NCBI GenBank assembly: GCA_965243495.1
Contig: CBDEUZ010000007.1
Coordinates: forward strand, 1,511,743-1,575,742
Source: Dehalococcoidia bacterium
Lineage (GTDB): Bacteria > Chloroflexota > Dehalococcoidia > UBA6926
Direction: 5' to 3'
Length of the DNA stretch: 64,000 nucleotides
The translations under genes were made by a program, and so were the position numbers. The notes under the pieces are model-generated. The model had not been told where the DNA came from and ran no database searches. It saw only the letters and a program-made list of their open reading frames with translations. Shown here piece after piece: positions 20,389-46,032 of the stretch (position 1 is its first letter; each line of letters begins with the position of its first letter).

Positions 20389-21060
20389 ATGGCCATGAAC
20401 CTCCAAATTGACCCCAAAACCACCGCCCTCATCGTCGTCGACATGCAGAACGACTTCTGCCATGCGGACGGTTTCTACGCAAAGGCCGCAGGGCGAATTG
20501 AACCCCTTGGCCTTGACCCCCAACTCGTAACCGACGCCATCCCGCCCATGTCGGCACTGCTTGAGGCCGCCCGCGCATCAAGCCTCTTCATCGTCCACAC
20601 CCGCATCGAGCGAGACGATTCCCCCGACGCCGTCCACCTCATCCACAATGTCGTCGCCCAGACCTTCGGTGCTGTAGCCGACGCCCCCGGCGGCCCAGCC
20701 CTCACGCCCGGCACGTGGGGCGCGGACATCCACGACGCTCTCGCCCCACAGGACGGCGAATACGTCGTAACAAAGCGCAGCTTCTCCGCCTTCTTTGGCA
20801 CCGACCTTGAGACCGCCCTCCGCCGCCGCGGCATCCGTACCGTCATCCTCGCTGGCACAATCACCTATGCCTGTGTCCTCCACACCGCCTTCGATGCCAA
20901 CGTCCGCGATCTGGATGTCATCGTGGTCTCGGATGGCACAGCCTCATGGGCGCCCGACCTCCAGGCCCCAACCCTCCGTATCGTCGACCTCATCCTCGGC
21001 GGCACTGCAGCCACCGGAGAAATCATCGAAGCCCTCGCCCTCGCCACTCGCGAGAAATAA
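20389..21060 (+). CDS. isochorismatase-family cysteine hydrolase
   Basis: …ALIVVDMQNDFCHADG… together with the family's catalytic K and C positions. Confidence 0.7.
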   Translation: MAMNLQIDPKTTALIVVDMQNDFCHADGFYAKAAGRIEPLGLDPQLVTDAIPPMSALLEAARASSLFIVHTRIERDDSPDAVHLIHNVVAQTFGAVADAPGGPALTPGTWGADIHDALAPQDGEYVVTKRSFSAFFGTDLETALRRRGIRTVILAGTITYACVLHTAFDANVRDLDVIVVSDGTASWAPDLQAPTLRIVDLILGGTAATGEIIEALALATREK

Positions 21061-21065: not shown

Positions 21066-21150
21066 GCAATCTCCCCGTTCACCCTGACACTGTCGAAAGT
21101 CCCCGTTCGCCCTGAGCGTAGTCGAAGGGGGTTCCCGAACGGAGAAACCT
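21066..21150. repeat. family-B REP-like elements (1.5 copies) at the left island border
   Basis: ccccgttcaccctgacactgtcgaaag + ccccgttcgccctgagcgtagtcgaagggggttcccgaacgg. Confidence 0.8.
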
Positions 21151-22761
21151 TCCCCCACTTACGCCAACGACATTCATAACAGGCCCGCTGAGAGCCATTT
21201 CCGTGGAATCGACGGGGCCGATGGGGCTATCGTCGGGCATCGGAATCGTGTAGGCAATGCTGGCTTTCCCGGGACTGATTCGGATTTCTTTGACGAACGA
21301 CCGGATGAAAGCCTTGGTCTCGGTCAACTCGCTGGTCTTGAGGAATTCACCCATTTCTCTCGCGTGGGCTGCGATTGTTTCGACCTTATCCAGGATCACC
21401 CGTCGCTCTGCAAGGGCGGTTCGGGCTTCCTCGGCTGCTATTTCCAGTTGCGCCTTCCGTTCTCGGTGTGTCGCGATGCGTTCGGACGCGTCCGACATCT
21501 CAATGGTCGCCGTTTCGATGGCCTCCAAGATCCGGTCCAATCTCTGCTTCAGGTCCGCGAGCTCGCTTTCGATGGTCGCAAGACGCTCGCGCTCCTCTCT
21601 CGCCATGCCGTCCATCTCCTCATCCAGCAACCGCACCAATCCCCGCACGTTCTTCTCGCTCAGGATGTTCTCGCGGATCTGGTCGATGATGAGGCGTTCG
21701 AAGCGCTTTGAGTTCAGGCGTGGGCAATCGCAGGTCCCGCTGCCCCGCTTGAGGAGCGATTGGCACACGTAATACGTATACCGACCGCCCTTGGCTTCAG
21801 AGGCCGATAGCGGCCTGCCGCAGTTGTCGCACGTGACAAGGCCACTGAGCACGTAAGGGCTGGAGGCTCGCATCGGGTGAATCACTTTCGGTGAGCGCGA
21901 CCCAAGGAGTTTGTTGACGCGCCGATACTCCTTAGCAGTCACGATTGCAGGGAATGCCCCCTCAACCCGGACGGGCGGCGCGCCGTCCTTGGCCGTGATA
22001 CCCCAGACCAGCGTGCCCGTATGGACTTCATTCGTCAGGATCACGTGGATTGTGTTCTTGGGCCACGTCTTGCCCCTCGGCGATGGGATACCCTCACTGT
22101 TGAGTGTCTTGGCAATCTCCATCGTTCCACGCCCCTTGAGCGCCATGTCGAAGATGCGGCGAACGATGGGCGCGGCGGACTCATCGAGTTCGAGCTTCGG
22201 CCTCTTCTTTGCGCCGTCCTGCACCAAAACGCGCCGGTAGCCGAATGGTGCATGAGGGCTCACCCAGAAGCCGCGTGACGCCGCCTCGCGCATCCCGCGC
22301 GTCACTTCCTGGGCGAGATTCTCCGAGTAGAACTCATCGACGCTCTCGATGATGGCCTCCATGAGCTTGCCGGTCGGAGTGTCGTCGGCGTGCTCTGTGA
22401 TGGAGACGACCCTGATGCCTCGCCTGCGCAGCATTGCCTTGAATGCGACGGCGTGTTCGCGCTTCCGGGTGAATCGCGAGAACTTCCAGACAAGGATTTC
22501 CTTGAACGGCGCGTTCGGCGAGCTCGCCTCGTCGAGCATCTTGCGGAACTGGGGCCGATCCGCGATGCGCCCACTCTCCGCCTCATCGATGTACTGCCGT
22601 GCGACGATATAGCCGTTCTTGTCGGCATAGTCCCGCAGTGCCCTCAACTGCGCCGCGACGGACAAGTCTACATCCTGCCGGTCACTGGAGACGCGGGCAT
22701 AGAGGGCGGCGGTCGGCAGTTGTTCCTGTTGTTGGGATTCCTTCTTCTGCTTGCCTTTCAT
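21079..22761 (-). CDS. large serine recombinase (resolvase N-domain + recombinase domain + Zn ribbon + coiled coil)
   Basis: N-terminal resolvase catalytic region (AALYARVSSDRQ…), a Cys4 zinc ribbon (CDNCGRPL…C…C), and coiled-coil-like C-terminal helices. The C-terminal tail runs into a family-B repeat. Confidence 0.8.
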   Translation of the reverse strand: MKGKQKKESQQQEQLPTAALYARVSSDRQDVDLSVAAQLRALRDYADKNGYIVARQYIDEAESGRIADRPQFRKMLDEASSPNAPFKEILVWKFSRFTRKREHAVAFKAMLRRRGIRVVSITEHADDTPTGKLMEAIIESVDEFYSENLAQEVTRGMREAASRGFWVSPHAPFGYRRVLVQDGAKKRPKLELDESAAPIVRRIFDMALKGRGTMEIAKTLNSEGIPSPRGKTWPKNTIHVILTNEVHTGTLVWGITAKDGAPPVRVEGAFPAIVTAKEYRRVNKLLGSRSPKVIHPMRASSPYVLSGLVTCDNCGRPLSASEAKGGRYTYYVCQSLLKRGSGTCDCPRLNSKRFERLIIDQIRENILSEKNVRGLVRLLDEEMDGMAREERERLATIESELADLKQRLDRILEAIETATIEMSDASERIATHRERKAQLEIAAEEARTALAERRVILDKVETIAAHAREMGEFLKTSELTETKAFIRSFVKEIRISPGKASIAYTIPMPDDSPIGPVDSTEMALSGPVMNVVGVSGGRFLRSGTPFDYAQGERGLSTVSG

Positions 22762-22969
22762 GGGGGTTCTCCTTCTGTTGAAATTGCTCGGACAGTACTC
22801 GTCCGATACTTGTCATAACCATACGAGAGCAGTCAAGGGGGTTGGTGACACATGAGAGTGAGGATCCAAAGGGGCAATCGCGGCTACTGGCCCCTAGAGA
22901 TTTTGAGATAAGGTGGCTGTGTCATATCCTGTAGCATGAAGGCGCGAGCAATCCAGTTGCGCACCAAGC

Positions 22970-24550
22970 ATGGCACAGAGGATTATGACAACGTTGACCC
23001 AGAAGAGAATTGGGGAAAAGCGATTCCCTAGCGTTTACACAAAGAACTTCGGCCCCATCGCTGAAGGTTCCGTGGAACTACGGCCATTCACAGTTTTCGT
23101 CGGGCCTAGCAATACTGGCAAATCTTACTTGGCTGTTCTTATTTATGCCCTGCACGAATTCTTCAGCGGGACAAGAACTGAATTCTTTGCCGGCACCCCA
23201 ATGAGAAGGACGCGGAGCTTGCCCTTGCCGGGGTTTGGAGATGATGCCCCAACGCAGAAGCAGATTCAAGAGGTTATCAAGTGGATTGAATCCCTAGATT
23301 CGCCCAGTTCCTTGGGAACGCGGCGGACGGGCGAACTCGACATCCCAGTTGCGGTGGCATCTACAATATGGCCTCCAATCGATGACTTCCTCACGTCGAC
23401 AGCGAGGCTTAGTCTAGCGGTCGAACGTGCACTAGGTGTCTCAGATATGGGTGATCTTGTTCGATATGGGAGCGGGCGGCCTCTGGAACTCAAGATAGAC
23501 CTTGGTGACGGCTCTGACTCGGTAATTGATCAATTTGAATACCAGGCTGAGACCTCCTCGTGGTTGTCTTCTCTCTCTGGAGTCAATTCAGAGCACTCAC
23601 TACCGACCTTGACCTTAAGTCGAGAAGAGGCCATGGCTCTGGGCGGTAATGTTCGGCATCGAGGGCCGCTTAGGCACAGCGATGATTTCCTAGTCGCCAT
23701 GACGCTTCATGAGATTGAAGAATCGATAATCAACAAGTTGGTAGGAGACTTTAGGGAGCCAGCCCACTACTTGCCAGCAGATCGGACAGGCATTATGCAT
23801 GCGCATCTGATTGCTGTAGCTTCTGTGATTCGGTCAGCAACTTACACCGGCCTGCGGGCAGAGCGGACTATGCCACAGTTGTCTGGAGTTATCGGCGACT
23901 TCCTCACGCAACTGGTAACATTGCCAAATCAAGTGCAGCGTGACCCTGCCGTTGCAAGAAGCTTGGCCAAAGATTTAGAAGCCAAGATACTTGACGGTGA
24001 AATTGACATTAATGAATCAATGACCGGCTATCCAGAATTCCGTTACCATCCACAAGGATGGGACAGACCGCTCCCCCTCATGAACACGTCATCAATGGTC
24101 TCTGAATTAGCTCCAGTGGTTCTATACCTTAGGCACGTGGTCGATCCCGGTGAACTCCTCATCATCGAAGAGCCGGAATCTCATCTCCATCCTGCAATGC
24201 AGGTTGAATTCGTACGACAGCTTGCTACCGCTATGACAAAGGGAGTTAAGATTCTCATTACAACCCACAGCGAATGGGTCTTGGAGGAGCTAGCCAATCT
24301 AGTTAGACTCTCGGCGTTGGGTGCGAATGACCGCTCAGCGATTAACCATACCGGACCAGCCTTGGATTCCGAAGATGTGGGGGTCTGGTTATTCGAACCG
24401 AAGAAGCGACCTAAGGGTTCGATCATTCGAGAAATCCAGTTCGATCCAGAACTGGGGGGTTATATCAGCGACTATGAGGACGTTGCTATCGATACGCATA
24501 ACACGTGGGCCCGAATCTCCAACCGCATTGAGGCACTTCAACAGGAATGA
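22970..24550 (+). CDS. ABC-type/AAA_21-like ATPase (defence-associated)
   Basis: Walker A FVGPSNTGKS near the N-terminus and a distal LIIEEPESHLHP (Walker B/D-loop) typical of AAA_15/AAA_21 SMC-like ATPases (the GajA/PtuA/OLD family class). The gene is visibly AT-richer. Confidence 0.65.
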   Translation: MAQRIMTTLTQKRIGEKRFPSVYTKNFGPIAEGSVELRPFTVFVGPSNTGKSYLAVLIYALHEFFSGTRTEFFAGTPMRRTRSLPLPGFGDDAPTQKQIQEVIKWIESLDSPSSLGTRRTGELDIPVAVASTIWPPIDDFLTSTARLSLAVERALGVSDMGDLVRYGSGRPLELKIDLGDGSDSVIDQFEYQAETSSWLSSLSGVNSEHSLPTLTLSREEAMALGGNVRHRGPLRHSDDFLVAMTLHEIEESIINKLVGDFREPAHYLPADRTGIMHAHLIAVASVIRSATYTGLRAERTMPQLSGVIGDFLTQLVTLPNQVQRDPAVARSLAKDLEAKILDGEIDINESMTGYPEFRYHPQGWDRPLPLMNTSSMVSELAPVVLYLRHVVDPGELLIIEEPESHLHPAMQVEFVRQLATAMTKGVKILITTHSEWVLEELANLVRLSALGANDRSAINHTGPALDSEDVGVWLFEPKKRPKGSIIREIQFDPELGGYISDYEDVAIDTHNTWARISNRIEALQQE

Positions 24551-25020
24551 GTCTTGCTTCTGAAACACGAATAGCCGTTAACAGCAGCTGTGTCGTAAAT
24601 AGAATCCAAGAGCAGTCGTGCAGATTGACGAGGCAGAACATTTCCAGTGATTCCCTGACGATCAATCTAAGGAAGTCCGCAAGCCCCGCAGACCCAAACG
24701 TCCCTCATTGCGACTTCATTTTCTTTGGCCGGATCGATGGGAACAGCCGTGAGTGGATCGTCCCTATCGAACTCAAGCGTCGCAGAGTTGACGCCGAAGA
24801 GGCGAGACGGCAACTTCAGGGCGGCGCTGATGTCGCGGATAAGATAACGCCCAAACAAGGGAGCTTTAGTTTCAAAGCTATAGTAGCAGCGCGAAAGTTC
24901 CCACCTAAGTTTAGGCAGGATCTCAGAAAGAGCGGGAACCAAGTTCGGTTCCGTGGGGTTGCATTTGTTGTTGAGACTGTCAGGTGTGGCAGTTCTCTTG
25001 CCGCCACTCTTCTAGAGTGA
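24547..25020 (+). CDS. small protein with PD-(D/E)xK-like nuclease motif, translationally coupled to the upstream ATPase
   Basis: ATGA start/stop overlap with the ATPase. Candidate motif HCDFIFF…(20 aa)…IELK (D…ExK). Confidence 0.4.
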   Translation: MSLASETRIAVNSSCVVNRIQEQSCRLTRQNISSDSLTINLRKSASPADPNVPHCDFIFFGRIDGNSREWIVPIELKRRRVDAEEARRQLQGGADVADKITPKQGSFSFKAIVAARKFPPKFRQDLRKSGNQVRFRGVAFVVETVRCGSSLAATLLE

Positions 25021-25377
25021 GTGAAAACTAGTCCCCGCGACTTACTTAGCCCGCCACACTGACCAGCCCCCAGCCCAGGGTGACTTCAACAGGCGCGGGT
25101 AAGCCAGCCAGATTGTGTTTTGCCCTGTCTTACAAACGGCCCGTACCAGTCCGCTCCTCCGCTCCCGAGGCGTCACCAAAGTGTCCGATGACAAGCTTTA
25201 CCAACTCCTGTATCAACTCGTCGACACGGTTCCGACGCGTCGGCGACCAGTCCCCGGTCAGTTCGCTAAAGGGACGCCTTCCACTCATTTGAGCAAGCCC
25301 TCTCTGCTCGCGGCTCTGGCTGTGGTATTCTCCACCACTGTTCCCATTATCTTCTGCCAAGTTTCCTCAGTCTCTTA

Positions 25378-25791
25378 CTACCGCCCTGCGACCCCTGCCG
25401 GCCCGCGCTTTCCCGGAATCAACTCGATGGGCTTCGGAATCAGCCACTCTGAGCCTGACTTGACTGCGCCGTGGAAGCGGCCGTCTCGGGCCAGCTGCCG
25501 GACGCGACGCACGGAGACACCGAGCTCGATAGCAGCCTGCTTGACGGTGACATTCGCCACGTCATCTGCGGGTGCCTCGTCCTCCAGGTCAAACTCAATG
25601 GGTTCGCCCTCTCTGAGCGTGCTGACCTCGTGGATGAGGAAACCGATGACCTCGCCGTGATCGTCGAGCCGCTTGAGGATGCGCTCGTGGTCTGTCGGCG
25701 TGAAGTAACCCTCGCGAAACGCCCAGAGGACTTCGAGCATGTCGCCTTCGTTGTCGTACCAGACTGAGACCTTTCTGGCCGTCATGTTCAT
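25378..25791 (-). CDS. DUF2283-like domain fused to excisionase/MerR-type HTH (putative antitoxin)
   Basis: N-terminal …VWYDNEGDMLEV… (DUF2283-like) and C-terminal …KQAAIELGVSVRRVRQLARDG… HTH. Confidence 0.5.
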   Translation of the reverse strand: MNMTARKVSVWYDNEGDMLEVLWAFREGYFTPTDHERILKRLDDHGEVIGFLIHEVSTLREGEPIEFDLEDEAPADDVANVTVKQAAIELGVSVRRVRQLARDGRFHGAVKSGSEWLIPKPIELIPGKRGPAGVAGR

Positions 25792-26105
25792 TCCCCCCTG
25801 ATTCTCCGGTCGAGGTAAGCGGTGAGGATGAAGGAGTAGCCGCGCTCCTGCTTCACTACGATGCAGACGTACCGATTCCTGCCGCGCAAGTCCGGGTACA
25901 GGCGATAGTAGAGGCGCACGGCGGGGCCGGATCGCGATGGCGCAATGGCGTCCGGCTCGGCAAGCGTCTCCGCAAACCGGTGTACTTGGAATGCCATTTC
26001 GGGGTGCCGTCGGAGGATATGCCGTAGCCTCTCATCGCTCAGCCTGACCTCATTTCCCCTCTCATCGACAAACCGTCGCGGTCCGTTTCCCTCACTCATT
26101 ACCAT
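25788..26105 (-). CDS. DUF4258-like small protein (putative toxin partner)
   Basis: 105 aa; 4-bp overlap with the downstream DUF2283-HTH gene. The DUF4258/DUF2283 pairing is a recurrent two-gene arrangement. Confidence 0.4.
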   Translation of the reverse strand: MVMSEGNGPRRFVDERGNEVRLSDERLRHILRRHPEMAFQVHRFAETLAEPDAIAPSRSGPAVRLYYRLYPDLRGRNRYVCIVVKQERGYSFILTAYLDRRIRGE

Positions 26106-26541
26106 ACCGCAAACTATACCTCTCGTTCCAACTCAGAGAAGCTCAGATCGCCTGAAAGTGGGCGCTGGCAAAACTGCCATTTGTATCTGGATTGGTACAA
26201 CAGCCAGATACAAAAGATGCAAAAATGTCAATTCAGCCGCTTCGTCCTCAACCCGGTGGCATCTCGGCCACAACGGCCGTTCTTGCGGTAGAGTTGCGTG
26301 GCCCGAATGATTCCACCCCGCACTCACTCCAGATAGGAAAGCGGTTGCCAAGATCGTCCACACGGCGCATATCCTCGGTGTCCCTGCGTCGGGTGGAGCC
26401 AGTTTTGACCTCGAATCCCTTTGCACCGAGTTAGCACCGCGAAACCTGTTGAGGTCAGACAGGGATAAACGAGGCCTGGCAGATATGCCGGGCCGTGGTC
26501 TCTGGGAAACACTCGAAACGGATGTTGGCAGTGCAACTGTT

Positions 26542-28521
26542 CTATCTGAAGTGTTCAACATTGTGTCTCACCGTCGGTGGCTGGCTGGCGTGTCTCCATG
26601 CGGAGGCGAACGGTCCGCGTTTCGCGAGAATATCGGTCGTTGTGCTCAAGAACGGGGCCCATGAAACCTTCCTCGTCGCAAGTATGAAGTTGGACTCGCT
26701 GGCATCCGACTCGAAGACGAAAAGCACCCGTGGCCATCGTCCTCCGTGATCCTTGCGGGCATAGTCGCTCTTGAAGTACCGGATGTAGGACTGCAGACGT
26801 TCAGTAACTCGCTTGAGAGTTGTGGCGCGGCGCTCGAACTCAAGGAAGTACGTGTGCCACTCACCCCTGAACGCAAGCTGGAATGAGGCATCGGGCATCA
26901 GCACGTGGCTCTTGACGTCGTGGGAGTAGATGATCTGAGAGCGTGCGGTAGGCAGAAGGAAACGGACATCGTAATCGCGGGAGAACTTGGCTTTGGCGGT
27001 CAGTGTGGCAGCGAAGTCTGTGATGCCGGCGTGATGGTCTGGTTGGGCTTCCATCGTGCGGAGAGCAGTGCCGAGGTAGGGGATATTGATCGTTTCGCCA
27101 GCAGGGAAAGGCTCTGAACTCCAGCGATCAAGAGTCTGGCCGACGGCGGCGCGGTCTCGGCGGGAGAGGTAAGTGAGGGTCTTCTCTCTAAGCACGTGGC
27201 CGTATTCCGTGGAGTGAATCAACCCCTGGCTCTTCAGCGACCGTAGTAGTTGATTAACGCGGCGCTTGGTGACACCACCCAGCAGGCCGGCGAGTTGCTC
27301 AGTGGTGGACAGCGGCCAATCCGCGAGGACATCGAGGGCGTCCTTCTCTGCGCGAGGCAGAGTGATTGCCAGAGATGATACAAACTGCTTCTCAGGGGCC
27401 GGCATTGTAGCAACTACCCTCTGATCGTAGATGAGATCGGGAATTGGGAACGCCGGAATGGGGTGGTTCTTGTTGGGATCCCTGATGAATTCGTCCTGCG
27501 TGTCAAGGATGTCGTTGAGGCTGGCGTGCGGAACAATCGTAGAGAACTGCTCCCTCAAGTCGAGGATGCCGCCTAGTTGCCAGACTAGGGCCGACGTGCT
27601 GTTGTTGAGGACCCTGGACTCCGTGGCAACCAAGGTGTCTTCATAGCCGCGGGACAACAGCCGGAGCGCCCTGCGCGTTGCTTGGTCAGAGGGCGTGACA
27701 ATGAGGGTGGTATTCGGCTTCTGGAAGTAGTTCAACCGCCCCAGACTTCTGATGCGATAGCGAAGATTGGCGGCCGACAGCATCGGGCCCTGTCGAACGA
27801 TGCCGAAGGAACGACCATCAGGCATGGTGAGGAGGGCATCGTACGGCCCGCTGCGGTAGTGGTCGAAACGGACCGGCGCCCCGTGGGCATCCGCGATGGC
27901 GACCTTTGCGGCGATGCGGTAGATGACTGCGATGCTATCCAACCGCTCCGCAAGTAGCTGAAACCACTGGCGCGACACGGGCCGGGTGCGCACGAACTCG
28001 CTCAACTTACCGTCGCCGGCAGCCTCGATGATGCCCTCTTGAGTTGGGTACCAACGGACTTGAGGACGCGGACCGAATTGCCTCAGCCGGTGCTGCACCG
28101 ATTCGGCGTAGCCGAACGACTTGAGCGTTCGCAGACGGTCACGCAGCGTGGACTGCGGCACATGTCGCAGCTCGGACAGATCCTCGACGGTGATGAGCGG
28201 CGTTCGACAGAGCATCAGCAGCGTCTGCCGGAGTGGGCGTGACATACCCTCAGGTTGGCGCGGATCGAAGGATGCCGTCGGCTCGGCGAGGACGGCATAC
28301 CTCGCCTCGTCGATCCGCCCGGGATCCTCGCCGAACCTGCTGATGACCGCCTGCGTCACGGCATAGCCGGCGCTGCGGCGGTCCAGGTAACGCCACAGCG
28401 TATGCCGCGAGACATCCAGATGTGCGGCTGTCCGAACACGACCGTGCCTCAGCACGTAGGCCTCCATGTACAGCCGAATGGCTCGCTGTAGCTCCGGGAC
28501 AACGGGATTACTCTTGCCCAA
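26542..28521 (-). CDS. large multi-winged-helix protein with C-terminal replication-relaxation (Replic_Relax)-like region
   Basis: Several wHTH-like segments (…RRVNQLLRSLKSQGLIHSTEYGHVL…; …LSELRHVPQSTLRDRLRTLKSFGY…) and C-terminal …LMPDASFQLAFRGEWHTYFLEFERRATT…, resembling plasmid/ICE replication-relaxation proteins. Confidence 0.4.
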   Translation of the reverse strand: MGKSNPVVPELQRAIRLYMEAYVLRHGRVRTAAHLDVSRHTLWRYLDRRSAGYAVTQAVISRFGEDPGRIDEARYAVLAEPTASFDPRQPEGMSRPLRQTLLMLCRTPLITVEDLSELRHVPQSTLRDRLRTLKSFGYAESVQHRLRQFGPRPQVRWYPTQEGIIEAAGDGKLSEFVRTRPVSRQWFQLLAERLDSIAVIYRIAAKVAIADAHGAPVRFDHYRSGPYDALLTMPDGRSFGIVRQGPMLSAANLRYRIRSLGRLNYFQKPNTTLIVTPSDQATRRALRLLSRGYEDTLVATESRVLNNSTSALVWQLGGILDLREQFSTIVPHASLNDILDTQDEFIRDPNKNHPIPAFPIPDLIYDQRVVATMPAPEKQFVSSLAITLPRAEKDALDVLADWPLSTTEQLAGLLGGVTKRRVNQLLRSLKSQGLIHSTEYGHVLREKTLTYLSRRDRAAVGQTLDRWSSEPFPAGETINIPYLGTALRTMEAQPDHHAGITDFAATLTAKAKFSRDYDVRFLLPTARSQIIYSHDVKSHVLMPDASFQLAFRGEWHTYFLEFERRATTLKRVTERLQSYIRYFKSDYARKDHGGRWPRVLFVFESDASESNFILATRKVSWAPFLSTTTDILAKRGPFASAWRHASQPPTVRHNVEHFR

Positions 28522-28848
28522 CAGGGTCTTGCTTCCTCATCGCTGGATCGTCGTAGGGCGACATTCGCCCCCACAATTCTCCGGATAAAGAGCAAGTTAG
28601 GTAATGGCCTGTAGGCCATTGTCAGAACAAGAGTTTTGTGCTAGGCAGCACGCTTTGTCGTGTGATGGCTACCACCTAGGTGCTCTAGAGAGAGTCCCAC
28701 TGATGGACGAATCTCGCCGGCAAGTTGGTGATCAGATAGGATGCGTAGTCTCTGGGCGCGAAGATTGAAACTGCCTGAAGAGGTCTGGAATCCGCTTTAG
28801 GACTTGCCGTACTATTGGGTTCGCGCTCAACTAACTACGGAGGAACTC

Positions 28849-29223
28849 ATGCCCATGCGCCGCATCTTTGTTAGCTTCGAGTACGATAGGGACAACGATT
28901 TGAAGAACAACTTCTTCAAACAAGCCGAGCAAAACTCTTCGCACCGTGTGGTCAACTCCTCGTTGAATAGGGCGTATGAGACGCAAGAATGGAAGGCGAA
29001 GGCACGGGCTGCGATTAATGGCAGCGACGTTGTGGTCATCCTAGTTGGCCGAGACACGCACAATGCTCCGGGCGTCCTGACTGAGACTGAGATTGCTGGA
29101 CAGTTGCGGAAGCCAATTCTCCAAGTGCTACCGCAGGGAAGAACGTACACTGGAGTGCCTGGTCTGAATGCTCCCATTCCGTGGCGGTGGAAAACAATCA
29201 ATGGCGCTCTTGATGACCTGTAG
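28849..29223 (+). CDS. TIR-like (DUF1863/MTH538-like) domain protein
   Basis: …RIFVSFEYDRDNDL… then …DVVVILVGRDTH… beta-strand pattern of TIR-like flavodoxin-fold proteins. GGAGG RBS 6 nt before the ATG (MPMRRIF). AT-richer region. Confidence 0.5.
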   Translation: MPMRRIFVSFEYDRDNDLKNNFFKQAEQNSSHRVVNSSLNRAYETQEWKAKARAAINGSDVVVILVGRDTHNAPGVLTETEIAGQLRKPILQVLPQGRTYTGVPGLNAPIPWRWKTINGALDDL

Positions 29224-29267
29224 GACTCTCTATCTTTCCGCCCCCTCTGAGAATGTGGAGCAGCGGA

Positions 29268-39031: not shown

Positions 39032-39812
39032 CGGGTGGAATCGCAATCTTCCGGTTTGTCTACAAGGTCAGTAAGTCCGATCTGCCGCATCATGGTCGCA
39101 TAAGAAACGTTTAGGAATGAATCGACATCCCTTGTCAATCGTAGATGGATTCGGCCTAATTCGCCGGGCGAGCAATTACTGCCTCAATCGCAGTCTTGGC
39201 CTCACTGATGGCTCGCTCAACTTGTGCCGTCTCGGCGTATCTGCCAACCGACTCCAAACCATGCTCTGACGCATAGCCTTCCGTAACGTCGAGCAAGGCA
39301 CGCAAGTCAGTCGTCGAAATTGTCACGGTCGTCATGACTGTCGCTCCTCCCTCTATAGTCTAGCCTTCCACTGTCCACTGATCGACTTTGCTCGAAGAGA
39401 CGCCCCAACTATAATTCTCTGACTCGTCGCGAGCCTTGCGTCAACTCAATGGCATCAATGGTCAAATACAGGCAAACTCCGTGCCGAGCACTAGCAATAT
39501 TAGCGCGTTTGTACTCCTCCCGTCAAAGCGGATGCGCTTCAGAGAATCGGAAGGCAACTGTGAACGGGGAGTCTCGCTCGCAAGGCGGCCGAGAGGCCGA
39601 GACAGACTCCGCCGGCCTCGTGCGTTTAGGACCGGGCACTATTTTCGCGACCGCTGGACACTGAGAGATCCGTTACTGCCGCCCCATGACCACATGCTAG
39701 AGCGTTCAATACTGAAGATAATGTAATGACAAGTTGTTCGTGACACCTGAACGACAGAAGACCCAGATAGCAGATCGATTGTGGATGAGTTCGTCGCGAT
39801 AGGAGGTTAGCT

Positions 39813-40394
39813 GTGACTACCGGCTCTTACTATGTCTACGCATTGAAGGATCCTACTTCATCTCCGGCAAGGGCATTCTATGTCGGAAAAGGGACGGGTA
39901 GCAGGGCTCACGATCATCTCATAAGGCCAGACAAGACGCGAAAGTATGCTCGCATCAAGGAAATACTGGACGCTGGGCATGAGCCTCTGGTCGACATTCT
40001 GATCGATGGCTTGTCGGAGACCGACGCACTACGTCTGGAAGCAGAGCTCATCGCTGGTTTCGGGACAGAAGAAACTGGAGGGGTCCTGACCAATTCCGTC
40101 GTTCCCAGCGGGATAGTTTCCGGGGCGAAGTCTCGGATAGTTGTTCCTGAAGGTGCAGTTGAGCAAGCTCAAATGGGGCTGACTATGCTTATGAGATCTG
40201 TTGCAAAGTTGATTGAGGTAAATCCTCAGGGCGCCACGAATGCTGAAGTCGCAAGTAGCTTAGGGCTTCGAAGCGATTATGAGGGGAAACAGAAGGACTA
40301 CCTGTCCTATAGTCTCCTAGGCCTGTTGCTGCGTGAAGGGCGAATTTTCCGCGACGACCGCACCAAGCGGCACATCTCGACTAGATTCGTGTAA
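39813..40394 (+). CDS. GIY-YIG nuclease-domain protein with C-terminal wHTH-like domain
   Basis: YYVYAL…FYVGKG…R…H pattern of the GIY-YIG superfamily. AGGAGG RBS 7 nt before the GTG. AT-richer. Confidence 0.5.
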   Translation: MTTGSYYVYALKDPTSSPARAFYVGKGTGSRAHDHLIRPDKTRKYARIKEILDAGHEPLVDILIDGLSETDALRLEAELIAGFGTEETGGVLTNSVVPSGIVSGAKSRIVVPEGAVEQAQMGLTMLMRSVAKLIEVNPQGATNAEVASSLGLRSDYEGKQKDYLSYSLLGLLLREGRIFRDDRTKRHISTRFV

Positions 40395-40426
40395 AGGACT
40401 CAGTTGGCTGCCCTCTTTGTCACAAT

Positions 40427-40473
40427 TCCACCTCCAAAACGAACGTTCGCAATGAAGCCAATGATCTGCCACC
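40427..40473. repeat. 47-bp direct repeat, copy 1 (tccacctccaaaacgaacgttcgcaatgaagccaatgatctgccacc)
   Basis: Matches 44172..44218 with one mismatch. Confidence 0.9.
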
Positions 40474-40623
40474 CGCACCTTCATTTCTCTTGCCACTTGT
40501 GACGGGCGCACGAATGACCGTCACGTTGTGAGGTCCGGGCTGTCGGACTCGCTGATGCTGAGCCGCGCTGGCCTCCAACCTGTGGGATGGGAGGCACGAG
40601 GGGCAATGCTCCCCAGTACCTAA

Positions 40624-43600
40624 CTAGCTCCCGCTTACCCAGCGCACACCTTCGGGCAGACGAGGCCAAGCGACTAGAGTGCCGTCTGTGGTAATAGCCA
40701 GCGTGTGATTGGTACGGACCACAATGCTCCGGTATTCCCCGTCAGGAGGACTGGTTCTGCGGCCTCGCTCGTTGCCCCAGCACACAACGGTGTTGTCGGT
40801 TGCTACCGCGCAGGTGTGAAACTCGCCCATGCTTACGCTCTGATAGGTTCCAGCAGGTCCGTCGGTCTGGCCGTGCTTGTTGTATCCCCAGCAGGAAATG
40901 GTGTCATCAGTTGTAATGGCGCAGGTGTGGTACTTGCCGGCGCTGACATTCTTGTAGGCGCCAACGGCCGCGCGCGCCTTGCCGTCCTGATTATTGCCCC
41001 AGCAGGCGACGCTGCCATCCGTGGCCACGGCACAGGAGTGGTCGTCACCGGCGCTGATGCTCTGGTACGTCCCTGTAGGCGCGTTTGTCTGGCCCTTCCG
41101 GTTGTCTCCCCAACAGATAATGGCGTCGTCGGTGGCAATGGCGCAGGTGTGTGCCGAGCCAGCGGATAGCGCCTTGTATGTGCCCGTGGGCGCAATGGTG
41201 CGGCCGTTTGCGCTGAGTCCCCAACAGGCAACGGCGTCGTCGGTTCCGATGGCGCAGGTGTGGTCATCGCCGGCCACAATGCTCTGGTACGTACCAGAGG
41301 GAGCGTTGGTTTGACCGTGTCCACCATATCCCCAGCAGGCAATGGTGTCGTCGGTTGCGATGGCGCAGGTATGGTCGTAGCCGGCAGCCAATTGCTTGTA
41401 GGCGCCCGCCGGAGCGTCGGTCTGGTCAAACTCGTCATATCCCCAGCAGGAAATTGTGCCGTCACTGGCGATGGCGCAGGCATGTTCATAGCCCAGTACA
41501 GCGGATTCGAACGTGCCGGAGGGCGTGTCGGAGCGGGCGTCAATATTCCATCCCCAGCACTTGACCGTGCCGTCTGTCGCAATGCCGCACGTGTAATTGC
41601 TAGCAAGAGCCGTGGCCTTGAAGGCGCCCGACGGTGATTCGGCTTGACCGTCGGCGTTAGTCCCCCAGCAGGAAACTGAGTCGTCGGTTGCGATGGCACA
41701 GGTGTGATTGCGTCTCGCGACGATACTTTTGTAGGTTCCCCCAGGCGCATTGGTCTTGCCACTGCCGCTATCACCCCAGCAGGCAATGGTGCCGTCGGTG
41801 GCGATGGCGCAGGTGTGGTATTCGCCCGCGCTTATGCTCACGTAGGAGCCCGCAGGCGCTCGGGTTTGCCCCCTGTTGTTCATTCCCCGGCAGATTACCG
41901 AATCATCACTCTTTATAGCGCAGGTGTGAACGAAGCCGGCCGTGACCGCCTTGTACGTGCCGGACGGGAAATTGCCCTCCCCGTGATCATTCAGACCCCA
42001 GCAGGAGATGGTGTCGTCAGTCTTGATGGTGCAGGTGTGCTCCCAACCGATGGCCATCGACTTGTAAGTACCGGCGGGCGATGCGTTCTGGGCGAAGCTG
42101 TGGTATCCCCAGCAGGCAATCGTGTCGTCAACAGCGATGGCGCAAGAGTGTCGGGAGTGCGATGCGATGGCCTTGAATGTACCTGCCGGAGGAGTGGCCT
42201 GATTGAATGTGTTCCAGCCCCAACAATCGATTGAACCGTCTGTGGCGATGGCACATGTGTGAACGCTTCCTGAAGCCAACGCTTTGTAAGCACCTGCAGG
42301 CGGGTCGATTTGACCTCGATGGCCTTCTCCCCAGCAATGGAGCGATCCGTCGGTGGCGATACCACACATGTGGAAGGAACCGCCGCTCAACTCCACGAAA
42401 GTGCGTTCCGGGTTAGTGGATGCCAGTAATGTCGCGGGATCGGATAGCGCTACCACTGTCCCTGTTGCGCTGCTGGTCAGGCTCTCCGAATACCCGTCGT
42501 CGTCGGTAAAGCTGACCTGCACCTTAATGGTCTTCCCCTGGTCATCGTCGGTGAGAGTGTAGGTCTGCCCGGTGGCCCCGGGGGTGTTCGTGTCCGAGCC
42601 GCTATCACTGCGTATCCACTGGTAGGTGTACTGCGGGTTTGAGAGTCCGTTTCCATCGCTGATTCCTGAGGTGTCGGCAGTCAGCGTCTCACCCACCTGC
42701 TCTGTGCCCGTGATGGTTGGCAGGCCGGTGGGTGTTTCGTTAGTCGGAGTGGGATCCGCCGGCGTGGTGAACCTCGCTGCTGGTTGGGACCACTCGCTCA
42801 GCCCGTGGGCGTTACGGGCCTTAACCCGGTACCGGTACGTGGTCTCCGGCGCCACGGTCGTGTCCGTGTAACTGGTGACTGAACTGCCCGTGTCGTCCTC
42901 GATGACATCGAATACGCCGGAGTCGTGGATTGCAGGGTTCCGCCTGAGCACCTGGTACCCCGTGATGCTGGTGTCCCCGGGGTCATCCCACGCAATTGTG
43001 ACTGAGTTGTGTGCGACGGATTCAATGGTGGGACGTGACGGCGTCGCCGGTGGCGCAATCGTCGGGGCTACTGTGGCGGGATTGTTCTGAGGAGTCTCTC
43101 CGCCACTACTCCCCCCTACGGCAGAGGTTACTGATGCAGTGGCAGCGCTGGTCAGCGACTCCGAATACCCTCCCTTATCGACAAAGTCCACGCGTACCTT
43201 GATGGTGTTGCCCTCGTCGGCTGCCACAAGGGTGTAGCCGGAGTCCGTGGCGCCCGTGATAACGGTGTCTGTGCCTCCGCTGCTTGAGATCCACTGAAAG
43301 CGGAACTGTACTCGGTCCAGCCCGTTGCCGTCCGTAATGGCCCCCGTATCTGCCGTCAGGGTTTCTCCGACTTCCGGCGTGCCGCTAATGACGGGAGTGC
43401 CGGTGGCCGCCACGTTGTCAGGTCTGGGCTGTCGGCCTTGCTCAAACTGAGTCGTGGAGGCCATTTGATAGAAGGCAGACCAGTCCGAGGTCCCGTGAGC
43501 ATTCCTTGCCCGAACCTGGAACCAGAGCGTGGCGGTTGGATCGAGTTCGCTGATTATGGCTCCCGCCCCGTAGAAGGCGATCTCAACGCCGTCTCCCGGC

Positions 43601-43983
43601 AAGTCAGTCCATTGGCCATTTCGGTACAACTGGACGTCGTAGGAATCGGCGCCCGTCACATCGTTCCACTGCAGGTCGACGCCCCCTATGAAGACGGCAG
43701 TTCCGGTAGGTTTGTTTGGAGTGTCCGGAGTTGAACCTTGGGCAGACACGGTTAAGGCGCTGGCAAGCAGAGCGATTAGTACCGACAGGAAGACCACCAG
43801 CAGCATGGCCGGATGAGTCGACGGACGGACAATCGGGCTGGCCTGCCCCGATGCTTCCCGGTCCGTCCGTTGCGCCTTTTCTGTTCTCGTATGCATGTCT
43901 TGGTGGTTACTCAGCAGAGACCCGCCCTCAACGTGCGTTCCTGTAGCTGCTCGATTAGCTACGAAACAGTTGTGAAAACACAA
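40624..43983 (-). CDS. secreted/surface protein: signal-anchor + 2 fibronectin-III-like domains + ~17 RCC1-like (CWG) beta-propeller repeats
   Basis: Hydrophobic segment MLLVVFLSVLIALLASALTVSAQG (the true start may be the ATG at 43806 or 43896). Two ~90-aa FN3-like modules. Tandem 37-38-aa repeats of HTCAIATDG(T/S)I(A/S)CWG.N..GQ…P.GTY.S. Confidence 0.6.
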   Translation of the reverse strand: MCFHNCFVANRAATGTHVEGGSLLSNHQDMHTRTEKAQRTDREASGQASPIVRPSTHPAMLLVVFLSVLIALLASALTVSAQGSTPDTPNKPTGTAVFIGGVDLQWNDVTGADSYDVQLYRNGQWTDLPGDGVEIAFYGAGAIISELDPTATLWFQVRARNAHGTSDWSAFYQMASTTQFEQGRQPRPDNVAATGTPVISGTPEVGETLTADTGAITDGNGLDRVQFRFQWISSSGGTDTVITGATDSGYTLVAADEGNTIKVRVDFVDKGGYSESLTSAATASVTSAVGGSSGGETPQNNPATVAPTIAPPATPSRPTIESVAHNSVTIAWDDPGDTSITGYQVLRRNPAIHDSGVFDVIEDDTGSSVTSYTDTTVAPETTYRYRVKARNAHGLSEWSQPAARFTTPADPTPTNETPTGLPTITGTEQVGETLTADTSGISDGNGLSNPQYTYQWIRSDSGSDTNTPGATGQTYTLTDDDQGKTIKVQVSFTDDDGYSESLTSSATGTVVALSDPATLLASTNPERTFVELSGGSFHMCGIATDGSLHCWGEGHRGQIDPPAGAYKALASGSVHTCAIATDGSIDCWGWNTFNQATPPAGTFKAIASHSRHSCAIAVDDTIACWGYHSFAQNASPAGTYKSMAIGWEHTCTIKTDDTISCWGLNDHGEGNFPSGTYKAVTAGFVHTCAIKSDDSVICRGMNNRGQTRAPAGSYVSISAGEYHTCAIATDGTIACWGDSGSGKTNAPGGTYKSIVARRNHTCAIATDDSVSCWGTNADGQAESPSGAFKATALASNYTCGIATDGTVKCWGWNIDARSDTPSGTFESAVLGYEHACAIASDGTISCWGYDEFDQTDAPAGAYKQLAAGYDHTCAIATDDTIACWGYGGHGQTNAPSGTYQSIVAGDDHTCAIGTDDAVACWGLSANGRTIAPTGTYKALSAGSAHTCAIATDDAIICWGDNRKGQTNAPTGTYQSISAGDDHSCAVATDGSVACWGNNQDGKARAAVGAYKNVSAGKYHTCAITTDDTISCWGYNKHGQTDGPAGTYQSVSMGEFHTCAVATDNTVVCWGNERGRRTSPPDGEYRSIVVRTNHTLAITTDGTLVAWPRLPEGVRWVSGS

Positions 43984-44171
43984 TTGTAAGGATTTGGTGT
44001 GAGTACATCGTTAAATCAGCGGCCTTTTGCGCAGAAATTACTGTGATTTTGGCGTAAAGAGGGACATATGCCGCCGATTATCCAGAAATCCCTCAACCAG
44101 GCGTCGATTAGAGTGGCGGGAAATGAAGAGGCTCGCGGGGTCAATCGAGTGCGCCTGACCGCCCCCTACAA

Positions 44172-44218
44172 CTCCACCTCCAAAACGAATGTTCGCAATG
44201 AAGCCAATGATCTGCCAC
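44172..44218. repeat. 47-bp direct repeat, copy 2
   Basis: tccacctccaaaacgaatgttcgcaatgaagccaatgatctgccacc; it directly abuts a family-A REP element. Confidence 0.9.
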
Positions 44219-44350
44219 CGTCATTCCCGCGAAAGCGGGAATCCAGTTCGGCGCATAGCGCCGTCTCTGTCATTCCGACTGCACCCCCATGTCATTCCGA
44301 GCGCAGTCGAGGAATCTAAAGACTCCATTGCGCCACCCCCGCCCGTCTTT
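44219..44350. repeat. REP-like cluster (A + C fragment + C)
   Basis: gtcattcccgcgaaagcgggaatccag then gtcattccgagcgcagtcgaggaatctaaag. Confidence 0.85.
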
Positions 44351-44392: not shown

Positions 44393-45274
44393 ATGCCCAA
44401 CTATGAGACCGTCCTCTATGAAAAGCAGCGCAATGGCGTACTCATCACGCTGAACCGACCCGAAACACTGAACGCCATCAGCCGCCAGTTGGAGCGCGAT
44501 GTCTCCGAGGCGCTAACTGAAGCGGAGAACGACCCCGAGGTCCGCGCCATCGTCCTCACAGGCGCAGGTCGCGCCTTCTCTTCCGGTTACGACATCGGCG
44601 CAGGCCGCGGTGAAACCGTCTGGCCGTATGGACTCCCCGAAGGCACGAGCGTCGCCGCCATCCTCGACGACTGGCGCGACCGCTCCCGAGATGAGACGGC
44701 CAAGCTGCTTCAGATCTGGGAACTCACCAAGCCTGTCATTGCCGCCGTCAACGGCTGGTGCATGGGTGGCGGCTCCTGGTATGCCCTCGCCTCCCACATG
44801 ACATACGCTGCCGAGGAAGCCGTCTTCGCCCAGCCCGAGATCCGCATGATCTCCAACACCAACTTCTTCTGGACCCTCAACGCCGGCTACAAGCACGCCA
44901 TTCGCTACGGCCTCACAGGCGACCACATCGATGCACAAGAAGCGCTACGCATCGGCCTGGTTAACGGCGTCGTCCCCGGTGATGATTTGCTTGAACACTG
45001 CTTCCGCGTCGTCGAGCGCATCGCCCTCGTCTCGCCTGAGACGGTCAAGATCAACCTCTACGTCGCCACCATGGGCCTCGAGATGATGGGACTCCGCAAC
45101 GCGCTCGTCCTCAACGATGAGCTGTCAGCCCACGCCCAGAGCTCGCAACGCGAAGACTTCAAGCGCGAAATGATGGACGCCCAGAAAGAGGGCGGCCTCC
45201 GCGCATTCCTCCAAGTGCGTGACGGCCCCTTCCAGCCGGAACCCTTCGGCCCCCGCTCCCGCGTTAGGGAGTAG
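44393..45274 (+). CDS. enoyl-CoA hydratase/isomerase family protein, paralog 4
   Basis: MPNYETVLYEKQRNGVLITLNRPETLNAIS…; closely related to the 17.2-20.0 kb triplet. Confidence 0.8.
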   Translation: MPNYETVLYEKQRNGVLITLNRPETLNAISRQLERDVSEALTEAENDPEVRAIVLTGAGRAFSSGYDIGAGRGETVWPYGLPEGTSVAAILDDWRDRSRDETAKLLQIWELTKPVIAAVNGWCMGGGSWYALASHMTYAAEEAVFAQPEIRMISNTNFFWTLNAGYKHAIRYGLTGDHIDAQEALRIGLVNGVVPGDDLLEHCFRVVERIALVSPETVKINLYVATMGLEMMGLRNALVLNDELSAHAQSSQREDFKREMMDAQKEGGLRAFLQVRDGPFQPEPFGPRSRVRE

Positions 45275-45393: not shown

Positions 45394-45468
45394 GCGGGGG
45401 TAGCTCAGTGGTAGAGCTCCTGCCTTCCAAGCAGGTTGTCGCGGGTTCAATTCCCGTCCCCCGCTCCA
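45394..45468 (+). tRNA. tRNA-Gly (anticodon TCC)
   Basis: Cloverleaf: acceptor GCGGGGG/CCCCCGC, D arm AGCTCAGTGGTAGAGC, anticodon loop CTTCCAA, T arm GCGGGTTCAATTCCCGT. Confidence 0.8.
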
Positions 45469-45476
45469 CCGCCCAC

Positions 45477-45785
45477 TTATGAACTGATAACTTGGCGCAA
45501 AGCGTCGTTTAGCCGCGTCTGCCAGCCTTTTCCACTCTCTCGGAAATGGGCAACGATGTCTGCGTCCAGCCGCACAGTAACCTTTTCCTTTGTTGGCGCC
45601 TTTTGCTTGCCACGCCTACGAAGCGACCACTCCACCAGTTCGGGATCAACCTCTATGGCAGGGCGAGCGCGAGCCCAATCCTCGTCTGTCCATTCCGGAA
45701 CATCCGGGTCTTCAGCAATGTGCCGCTGAATCTCCGCTTCCTCTTCGTCGGTAGGGACGTGTATTTTACGTTCTCTCACGGACAT
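45477..45785 (-). CDS. brnA: BrnA-family antitoxin
   Basis: …KEKVTVRLDADIVAHFRESGKGWQTRLNDALRQ… C-terminal BrnA signature; overlaps the brnT stop. Confidence 0.6.
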   Translation of the reverse strand: MSVRERKIHVPTDEEEAEIQRHIAEDPDVPEWTDEDWARARPAIEVDPELVEWSLRRRGKQKAPTKEKVTVRLDADIVAHFRESGKGWQTRLNDALRQVISS

Positions 45786-46032
45786 ATCTATTTCTCTCTT
45801 GCCTGCTCGCGCTCCTCAAGCTTATGATGCGTCTCCGTTCGTCCCTCATGGTGTACACGACATAGTGCAATCGACCACCAATGAGTCCGATGGCCGTCCA
45901 GCGGGTTTCGTCATGTCGGTCGCTGGATCTGATCACCGCCGTTTCCCACTCAAAATCCTCGATTATCTCGAACGCGGGGCGGCCTGCCCGGACGTTAGCA
46001 GCATTCTTCGCCGCATCCCACTCGTACTCCAC
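45766..46032 (-). CDS. brnT: BrnT-family toxin (RelE-like)
   Basis: N-terminal MEYEWDAAKNAANVR…, typical of BrnT. Confidence 0.6.
   Translation of the reverse strand: MEYEWDAAKNAANVRAGRPAFEIIEDFEWETAVIRSSDRHDETRWTAIGLIGGRLHYVVYTMRDERRRIISLRSASRQERNRYVRERT

What the first reader, a model, noticed from the sequence alone, without database searches (positions are those of the whole stretch)
40427..44218. 47-bp near-perfect direct repeat flanking the 3.4-kb RCC1-repeat gene
tccacctccaaaacgaa(c/t)gttcgcaatgaagccaatgatctgccacc occurs at 40427-40473 and 44172-44218 (1 mismatch in 47 bp), bracketing only the 1119-aa surface-protein gene. This fits att-site duplication by tandem integration, a cassette insertion, or a recombination substrate that can delete or invert the segment.
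Basis: seen in the sequence. Interest (0 to 1): 0.6.

Follow-up and report, generated by a model that had tools for sequence, protein, structure and literature searches.

The report
Duplicated end of a mobile defence island
The repeat is real: it is the conserved end sequence of a 23-kb mobile defence island driven by a serine recombinase, present twice, with a surface-protein gene trapped between the copies; this is an ordinary composite mobile element found in an unusual host, a Dehalococcoidia lineage whose relatives are metagenome-assembled genomes.

Summary
The repeat is confirmed. It is 52 nt with 2 mismatches, at 40422-40473 and 44168-44219. There are no other copies in the window. A related complete 1.87-Mb genome has exactly two copies.

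The repeat does not bracket an independent insertion. In four related contigs, the isochorismatase and enoyl-CoA hydratase genes that flank window 21.1-44.4 kb are adjacent. The whole of 21153-44219 is therefore one 23-kb insertion. It runs: large serine recombinase, conserved backbone, Mza and other defence genes, R1, a gene fragment, the RCC1 gene, R2. R2 ends exactly at the island/host junction.

The same ~55-nt sequence ends two other islands with different cargo in other Dehalococcoidia genomes. Its right edge is sharp and meets four different flanks.

I read R as the island's distal attachment-site arm. R1 is then an older or internal island end, which makes the island composite, like SCC composite islands. 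How the duplication arose is not resolved. The pairing of R with the recombinase is seen only in this window.

Verdict: a new member of a known kind, of moderate interest.

The parts
40422..40473 (+). R1, the internal copy of the island-end repeat (47-nt core 40427-40473)
   Evidence: Low-GC defence cargo lies to its left (GIY-YIG gene ends at 40394). The X' fragment and the RCC1 gene lie to its right.
44168..44219 (+). R2, the terminal copy. Its last base is the right end of the inserted island.
   Evidence: A host-type REP palindrome starts at 44220. Homology to related genomes with an empty site resumes at 44285-44347.
40624..43983 (-). RCC1-repeat / fn3 / AIR9-Ig surface-protein gene (1119-aa ORF; the true start is probably further downstream)
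   Evidence: Pfam RCC1_2 x14, fn3 and IG_AIR9. 111-nt periodic repeats. Homologs at 83-88% lie in ordinary chromosomal contexts without R.
40491..40573 (-). X', a decayed fragment of the fn3/Ig linker of the same gene family. It lies between R1 and the RCC1 stop codon.
   Evidence: 73% nt identity to 43380-43462. It is in frame behind the stop codon. Only 14 of 32 aa are identical. It is conserved in OZ242203.1.
21153..44219 (.). The whole inserted island (23,067 bp)
   Evidence: The site is empty in L006, L008, L014 and L015. Homology to three related islands starts at exactly 21153. There are no host REP units inside. GC is 0.52-0.58 in the cargo against 0.60-0.65 in the host.
21079..22761 (-). 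Large serine recombinase ORF. It has no stop codon of its own and reads across the left junction (21152/21153) into a host REP unit.
   Evidence: Pfam Resolvase + Recombinase + Zn_ribbon_recom. The nearest solved structure is SPbeta YokA. Junction alignment. Homologs are 540-643 aa long.
25251..28668 (-). Conserved island backbone (PBECR2, Replic_Relax and small ORFs)
   Evidence: 77-89% nt identity to the islands in L009-L011. Pfam results.
28804..40394 (.). Variable defence cargo: ThsB-like TIR, 8xMP, MzaE/D/C/B, a Dcm-HhH methylase, and a GIY-YIG (PD-T4-3-like) protein
20389..21060 (+). Host isochorismatase gene, the left flank of the insertion site
   Evidence: It is adjacent to ECH4 in relatives.
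44393..45274 (+). Host enoyl-CoA hydratase paralog ECH4, the right flank of the insertion site

Best explanation
R is the conserved distal end of a family of integrative defence islands. Within it, the last ~25 nt are most likely one arm of attP. The islands are mobilised by a large serine recombinase (LSR) encoded at the opposite end.

In this genome the island (21153-44219) inserted between the isochorismatase and ECH4 genes, within a cluster of host REP palindromes. A CC crossover dinucleotide fits both junctions. That gives attP as ..GATCTGCCA-CC-CCACTTACG.. and attB as ..AAACCTTC-CC-GTCATTCC..

R2 is the working right end, at the attR junction. R1 is a second copy of that end. It marks where an LSR-island end once abutted a surface-protein gene region, of which X' is the scar. 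The island is therefore composite: a recombinase-plus-defence part ends at R1, and a recombinase-less RCC1 segment ends at R2.

The composite moves as a unit using R2. The same R1-X'-RCC1-R2 module sits at a different chromosomal site, behind different cargo, in OZ242203.1.

What is shown: the insertion, its limits, and the conservation and sharp edge of R. What is inferred: that the LSR acts on R, the CC crossover, and how the duplication arose.

Predicted consequences:
- Two alternative excision products, attL x R2 or attL x R1.
- Rare RecA-dependent loss of the RCC1 gene.
For: - Four related contigs have isochorismatase directly next to ECH4.
- Homology to three islands with 84-95% identical LSRs begins at exactly 21153.
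- R2's last base is followed at once by a host REP unit. REP units (27 hits) are absent from 20.3-44.2 kb.
- R (~55 nt) ends islands with three different cargos. These are Mza here, HerA/AAA/DUF433 in OZ242203.1, and Gabija-like OLD+UvrD/SMODS in VXMO01000010.
- R's right edge is sharp against four unrelated flanks, while similarity decays gradually to its left.
- The LSR has the full Resolvase/Recombinase/Zn-ribbon architecture.
- Related islands sit at the 3' end of tRNA-Ile, as integrative elements do.
- The R1-RCC1-R2 module is 93-97% identical between the window and OZ242203.1. Flanking housekeeping DNA is only 71-87% identical to the four relatives L004, L006 and L008.
- RCC1 homologs elsewhere are plain chromosomal genes without R.
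- SCC composite islands give a precedent: serine recombinases, recombinase-less segments between att repeats, and even a surface-protein gene (PMC7029136).
Against: - R and the LSR are seen on the same island only in this window. The other ends of the OZ242203.1 and VXMO islands lay outside the DNA I could fetch.
- I could not see the R-side end of the tRNA-Ile islands.
- Dyad symmetry between R's last 25 nt and the LSR-side end is weak: 12 of 30 positions, with an ATGAA/TTCAT pair at about +/-16-17.
- The conserved block (~55 nt) is longer than one attP arm needs.
- The VXMO copy has CT where the model expects CC.
- No relative has the exact REP arrangement of this site, so attB is inferred rather than observed.
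- Serine integrases normally do not recombine attP with attL or attR (PMC3783163 abstract). Simple SCC-style tandem integration is therefore not a given.
- The sequence right of R1 does not resemble an LSR-island left end.
Confidence: 0.6

Rival explanations
1. Campbell-type cassette gain. A circular DNA carrying one R plus X'-RCC1, for example a fragment of another island, integrated by a single homologous crossover at the R already present at the island's end. The result is R-insert-R.
For: - Direct repeats bracketing an insert are the classic signature of this event.
- R1 and R2 differ at only 2 of 52 positions.
- Cargo to the left of R1 differs between the window and OZ242203.1 while the module is shared. 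R is therefore a breakpoint of exchange.
- The GC of the RCC1 segment (0.60-0.63) differs from that of the defence cargo.
Against: - Only 29 nt of perfect identity, and about 55 nt in total, is a poor substrate for homologous recombination.
- It needs a prior circular molecule that already joined R to the RCC1 region, which only moves the question back.
- It does not explain the X' scar.
Confidence: 0.17
2. Local tandem duplication of the island's right end, followed by deletions. R1 would be a leftover of a duplicated RCC1-R unit.
For: X' (40491-40573) is homologous to an internal part of the RCC1 gene. Some duplication or paralog decay therefore happened here.
Against: - The order is wrong for a simple tandem copy. 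On the plus strand it reads R1 then X', but X then R2.
- At least two further deletions would be required.
- X' is only 73% identical to X while R1 and R2 are 96% identical, so the two did not arise in one event.
Confidence: 0.1
3. R is the core of a tyrosine-recombinase or Xer-type site (an att or dif-like direct repeat). The RCC1 gene would be a small integrated element of its own, served in trans.
For: - Direct repeats of tens of bp flanking an insert are typical of tyrosine integrase or IMEX elements.
- R contains a perfect 10-bp palindrome, CGAACGTTCG.
Against: - No tyrosine recombinase appears among the island ORFs scanned.
- R is not part of a tRNA or tmRNA.
- R lies at three unrelated chromosomal sites in three genomes, which does not fit a single dif.
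- There is no copy of R at the left end of the 23-kb insertion.
- Both R copies are absent from the empty sites. R is therefore brought in by the element, not duplicated from the host.
Confidence: 0.05
4. R is a dispersed host repeat (REP- or MITE-like), or a regulatory motif that happens to flank the gene.
For: - The host genome is full of short palindromic intergenic repeats.
- R2 lies about 190 nt upstream of the RCC1 ORF.
Against: - There are only 2 copies in 64 kb and exactly 2 in a complete 1.87-Mb relative.
- Folding is no better than shuffled sequence, with z-scores from -1.1 to +1.0.
- No promoter or terminator consensus lies in or next to R.
- No Rfam family matches.
- R1 sits downstream of two convergent genes, not upstream of anything.
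Confidence: 0.03

Closest known systems
Staphylococcal cassette chromosome (SCC/SCCmec) composite islands with Ccr serine recombinases
   Same: - A large-serine-recombinase element forms a composite island.
- Segments are delimited by repeated att-derived direct repeats.
- One segment lacks a recombinase (a pseudo-SCC analogue).
- That segment can carry a surface-protein gene, such as sesJ (PMC7029136).
   Different: - SCC repeats are 18 bp and reflect a core shared with one fixed attB in orfX/rlmH. Here the repeat is ~55 nt and element-derived.
- Here the islands sit at several different sites: a REP cluster, tRNA-Ile, next to katG, and next to an EamA gene.
- There is one recombinase gene, not ccrAB.
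- The cargo is anti-phage defence, not resistance.
Serine-integrase prophages and islands (SPbeta SprA/YokA, A118, Bxb1, phiC31 type)
   Same: - The domain architecture is the same, and YokA is the nearest solved structure.
- The recombinase gene lies at one end of the integrated element.
- The model has a 2-bp crossover.
- Close relatives insert into a gene's 3' end, here tRNA-Ile.
   Different: - Those systems leave no long direct repeats.
- Here there are no phage genes. The backbone is Replic_Relax/PBECR2 plus defence cargo.
- The recombinase ORF lacks its own stop codon and reads across the junction.
Tandem accretion of integrative elements at tRNA/tmRNA sites (tyrosine-integrase genomic islands)
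   Same: Repeated att sequences mark successive element ends. Older, decayed elements without an integrase lie beyond the active one.
   Different: The recombinase class is different. The repeat is not derived from the target gene. No third copy lies at the recombinase-side junction.

Membership tests
Large-serine-recombinase integrative element | Encodes a recombinase with Resolvase catalytic, Recombinase and zinc-ribbon domains | tested here: met
   Pfam E-values of 6e-33, 3e-22 and 6e-13. PDB YokA E = 3e-16.
Large-serine-recombinase integrative element | A discrete insertion relative to an uninterrupted site in relatives | tested here: met
   The site is empty in L006, L008, L014 and L015. 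The left limit of 21153 is defined by three related islands.
Large-serine-recombinase integrative element | Both element ends are conserved among elements with related recombinases (the attP arms) | tested here: inconclusive
   The left end is conserved in 4 islands. The right end R is conserved in 3 genomes. Both ends are seen together only in the window.
Large-serine-recombinase integrative element | An identical 2-bp crossover at both junctions | tested here: inconclusive
   CC fits the window junctions and the tRNA-Ile junctions. The VXMO copy reads CT. attB is not directly observed.
Large-serine-recombinase integrative element | Recombinase-dependent integration and excision | not testable with these tools
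   Needs read data, PCR or biochemistry.
SCC-like composite island | Several att-derived direct repeats delimiting segments, at least one segment lacking a recombinase | tested here: met
   R1 and R2 bracket the RCC1 segment. The only recombinase is at 21079-22761.
SCC-like composite island | All elements integrate at one conserved chromosomal attB, and the repeat is the shared attB/attP core | tested here: not met
   R-ended islands lie at different loci. R is absent from the empty sites.
Integron gene cassette | An attC hairpin site and an integron tyrosine integrase nearby | tested here: not met
   R shows no structure beyond shuffled sequence. No integrase of that type is among the ORFs scanned.
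Dispersed REP/MITE repeat | Many copies per genome | tested here: not met
   2 copies in the window. 2 copies in a complete 1.87-Mb chromosome and 1 in a third MAG.
tRNA-derived att repeat of a tyrosine-integrase island | The repeat equals the 3' part of a tRNA/tmRNA gene, and a tyrosine integrase lies next to it | tested here: not met
   ARAGORN and Rfam find nothing in R. No tyrosine integrase was found.

The most novel reading that the evidence does not exclude
The duplicated end may give the island two alternative right borders. The recombinase could then excise and transfer the defence island either with or without the RCC1 host-interaction gene. On this reading, defence islands act as vehicles that spread eukaryote-like surface proteins between Dehalococcoidia species. 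The module is 93-97% identical between two genomes, while the housekeeping DNA around it here is only 71-87% identical to four other relatives. The recombinase ORF would also change its C-terminal tail between the integrated and excised states, because it reads across the junction into R.
Probability: 0.2. Interest if true: 0.55.

Novelty: new member of a known kind. Interest (0 to 1): 0.35.

Why it matters
- The work turns an unexplained repeat into a map of a 23-kb mobile defence island, with base-level limits, in an uncultured Dehalococcoidia lineage where mobile elements are barely described.
- It identifies a large, widespread serine-recombinase family: thousands of ~70% identical homologs in metagenome-assembled genomes. 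The family has a modular backbone and swappable anti-phage cargo.
- It shows that a eukaryote-like RCC1 surface-protein gene, of a family whose closest homologs here are ordinary chromosomal genes, can ride on such an island.
- The inferred attP/attB pairs, including a tRNA-Ile site, are directly testable and could be useful as new integrase tools.

Tried and rejected
- RNA structure or RNA gene in R: folding of both strands is no better than shuffles. Rfam and ARAGORN find nothing.
- Promoter or terminator in R: none found.
- Weaker R copies, or half-copies, in the window and in all fetched loci: none.
- R core in JGI metagenome contigs and in IMG/VR viral contigs: 0 hits.
- LSR relatives in viral contigs: none.
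- Exact-protein look-ups of the window's ECH4, LSR and GIY-YIG proteins: not on record. I therefore could not identify the source genome or variant alleles of this same island.
- Clear dyad symmetry in the inferred attP: only weak.
- Resemblance between the flank right of R1 and an LSR-island left end (a nested or tandem attP): only a CCACTT hexamer that belongs to X'. Rejected.
- Reading R as coding on the plus strand (ORF 44068-44319): a 1-nt indel relative to OZ242203.1 breaks the frame, and there is no Pfam hit.
- A recurring CCTTC a few bases right of some R copies, and at the left host flank: noted, but judged too weak to interpret.
Full report
OBSERVATION

The repeat exists. It has a single C/T difference. 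The ungapped match is 52 nt (40422-40473 / 44168-44219) with 2 mismatches. No shuffle of the window gave a match. No further copy or half-copy exists in the 64 kb, even at 20 of 52 mismatches.

Between the copies lie three things:
- A 1119-aa ORF on the minus strand (40624-43983) with 14 RCC1 repeats, fn3 and AIR9-type Ig domains.
- Its upstream region.
- A 150-nt stretch between R1 and the stop codon.

WHAT SURROUNDS IT

To the left of R1 is a low-GC block (0.52-0.58, against 0.60-0.65 elsewhere). It is full of mobile-element and defence genes:
- A large serine recombinase (LSR, 21079-22761, minus strand) with Resolvase, Recombinase and zinc-ribbon domains.
- An AAA_15/PD-T4-4-like ATPase, PBECR2 and Replic_Relax.
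- A ThsB-like TIR protein and 8xMP.
- The Mza system (MzaE/D/C/B plus a Dcm-HhH methylase).
- A GIY-YIG protein that ends 28 nt before R1.

To the right of R2 come host-type REP palindromes, an enoyl-CoA hydratase paralog (ECH4, 44393-45274) and tRNA-Gly.

THE DECISIVE COMPARISON

ECH4 orthologs at 91-97% identity exist on long contigs of related Dehalococcoidia. In four of these (L006, L008, L014, L015) the gene order is ECH1-ECH2-ECH3-isochorismatase-ECH4-glmS. Only 55-100 nt separate isochorismatase from ECH4. In the window those two genes are 23.3 kb apart (21060 to 44393). The defence block, both R copies and the RCC1 gene therefore belong to one insertion.

The left limit is fixed to the base. 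Three islands with LSRs 84-95% identical (L009-L011) align with the window starting at exactly 21153. In those three islands the sequence beyond that point is the 3' end of a tRNA-Ile(GAT) gene. In the window it is a host REP unit.

The right limit is the last base of R2. A host REP unit starts at 44220. The three REP families give 27 hits in the host parts of the window and none between 20.3 and 44.2 kb.

R ELSEWHERE

A scan of one genome per species (185,579 genomes) with a 24-nt R core found only two genomes.

OZ242203.1 is a complete 1.87-Mb Dehalococcoidia chromosome:
- It has exactly two copies, and they bracket the same RCC1 gene.
- R1-X'-RCC1-R2 is 93.4% identical to the window, and the R1 side is 97% identical.
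- Both outer flanks are unrelated to the window. To the left of R1 are HerA-like and AAA ATPases and a DUF433 gene. To the right of R2 are katG and dioxygenase genes.

VXMO01000010.1 is another Dehalococcoidia MAG:
- It has a single R.
- R sits at the end of a block with a Gabija-like OLD ATPase plus UvrD helicase, SMODS and DUF4411.
- An EamA transporter gene follows.

Aligning the five copies shows an invariant block from ..CTACAA to ..CTGCCAC. Its right edge is sharp and meets four unrelated sequences. To the left, similarity fades gradually; two copies share a further CCTGTTCTC. This is how the end of a mobile element looks, not a duplicated host target. No R occurs in the empty sites.

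INTERPRETATION

R is the conserved distal terminus of a family of integrative defence islands. In the window the opposite terminus carries the LSR. The LSR ORF has no stop codon of its own and runs across the junction. This explains why its homologs are 540-643 aa long.

A serine-integrase model with a CC crossover fits the window junctions:
- attL: ..AAACCTTC-CC-CCACTTACG..
- attR: ..CTGCCA-CC-GTCATTCC..
It also fits the tRNA-Ile junctions (..GGATG-CC-CCACTTACG..).

I therefore take the last ~25 nt of R to be one attP arm. This step is an inference:
- Dyad symmetry with the other arm is weak.
- The VXMO copy has CT instead of CC.
- I could not see the far ends of the other R-terminated islands, nor the R-side ends of the tRNA-Ile islands.

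WHY TWO COPIES

R2 is the island's present right end. R1 is a second island end lying inside. Its right flank is not host intergenic DNA. It is a decayed piece (X', 40491-40573) of the fn3/Ig linker of the same surface-protein family. X' is 73% identical at the nucleotide level to 43380-43462, but only 14 of 32 residues match. It sits in frame behind the RCC1 stop codon. X' is conserved in OZ242203.1.

The RCC1 segment has host-like GC. Its closest homologs elsewhere (83-88%) are ordinary chromosomal genes with neither R nor X'.

The simplest reading has four steps:
1. An island end (R1) came to lie against a surface-protein gene region.
2. This happened inside or next to another element that ended in R2.
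3. That element's own recombinase part is gone.
4. The composite now moves as one unit, as shown by its different location and different left-hand cargo in OZ242203.1.

SCC composite islands are the closest precedent. They have serine recombinases, att repeats between segments, recombinase-less pseudo-elements, and in one case a surface-protein gene (PMC7029136). Two things differ. SCC uses one fixed attB with an 18-bp shared core. Serine integrases also do not normally pair attP with attL or attR (PMC3783163 abstract). The exact route therefore stays open: nested insertion plus deletion between the two recombinase copies, co-mobilisation of neighbouring elements, or a Campbell-type crossover at R.

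RIVALS

- A dispersed repeat is excluded by copy number.
- An integron attC, a tRNA-derived att and a structured RNA are excluded by the lack of structure and of the matching integrases.
- A simple tandem duplication does not fit the order R1-X' ... X-R2, nor the unequal divergence of X' (73%) and R (96%).
- A Campbell-type gain of the RCC1 segment through R cannot be excluded and is the main rival.

CONSEQUENCES (INFERRED)

- The recombinase, with a directionality factor, could excise either the whole island (left end x R2) or only the defence part (left end x R1), leaving RCC1-R2 behind.
- RecA could delete the RCC1 gene between the two copies. With only 29 nt of uninterrupted identity this should be rare.
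- Inversion is not possible between direct repeats.

VERDICT

The repeat is the duplicated end of a 23-kb serine-recombinase defence island, and the RCC1 gene is a passenger segment within it. This is a new member of a known kind of composite mobile element, and it is of moderate interest.

Noticed in passing
window 11.7-21.15 kb and 44.22-50.2 kb (e.g. 16748-16838, 20054-20374, 48204-48598): At least three families of short palindromic REP-like repeats (GTCATTCCCGCGAAAGCGGGAATCC, GTCATTCCGAGCGCAGCCGAGGAATC, CGCCCTGAGCCTGTCGAAGGGG). They give 27 hits, all on the plus strand, often in tandem blocks of 107 or 199 nt. They occur in close relatives (L004, L006) but not in L008, OZ242203.1 or VXMO. 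Some are read through by long ORFs, such as the N-terminal extension of the glmS ORF.
   Followed up: partly
window 21079-21152; L009 11604-11678; L010 11583-11657; L011 11581-11657: The serine recombinase ORF lacks its own stop codon and reads across the element/host junction. It runs into a REP unit here and into the antisense of tRNA-Ile in three relatives. In an excised circle it would run into the reverse complement of R (..VSG-VADHWLHCE(H/R)SFWRW..). The protein's tail would then differ between the integrated and excised states.
   Followed up: partly
L004 8872-9861; L005 1848-2837: The same isochorismatase/ECH4 intergenic site holds a different insert in the closest relative (ECH4 97% identical). 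It is a 329-aa gene with no Pfam hit, flanked by REP units. This spot is therefore an insertion hot spot.
   Followed up: no
window 29784-39046: A complete Mza-type defence system (MzaE AIPR, MzaD DUF4420, MzaC Z1, MzaB HATPase_c_3). Its cytosine methylase is fused to a C-terminal helix-hairpin-helix, EndoIII-like part (667 aa).
   Followed up: partly
window 48.2-49.8 kb (AbiJ_NTD4 gene 48898-49716): The glmS-BacA interval is a second variable spot. It holds an AbiJ-like gene behind a 199-nt tandem REP block here, KAP NTPase genes in L014, and unannotated genes in L006.
   Followed up: no
window 40443-40452 (and within all R copies): R contains a perfect 10-bp palindrome, CGAACGTTCG, in four of five copies (CGAATGTTCG in R2). 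It lies outside the ~25 nt expected for an attP arm. It may be a binding site for an accessory protein such as the backbone's excisionase-like HTH protein.
   Followed up: no
window 17146-19985 and 44393-45274: Four enoyl-CoA hydratase paralogs, 70-78% identical at the nucleotide level. Three are in tandem and the fourth lies beyond isochorismatase. The arrangement is conserved across all relatives examined.
   Followed up: partly
window 45394-46125: tRNA-Gly(TCC) is followed by a BrnA antitoxin gene without an obvious BrnT partner. Relatives carry HicB and BrnA genes in this interval.
   Followed up: no
window 22850-25250: A variable slot lies between the recombinase and the conserved backbone. 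It holds a PD-T4-4-like AAA_15 ATPase here, and AAA_33/DUF3226/AAA_15, Gp49/HTH or CYTH genes in L009-L011.
   Followed up: partly
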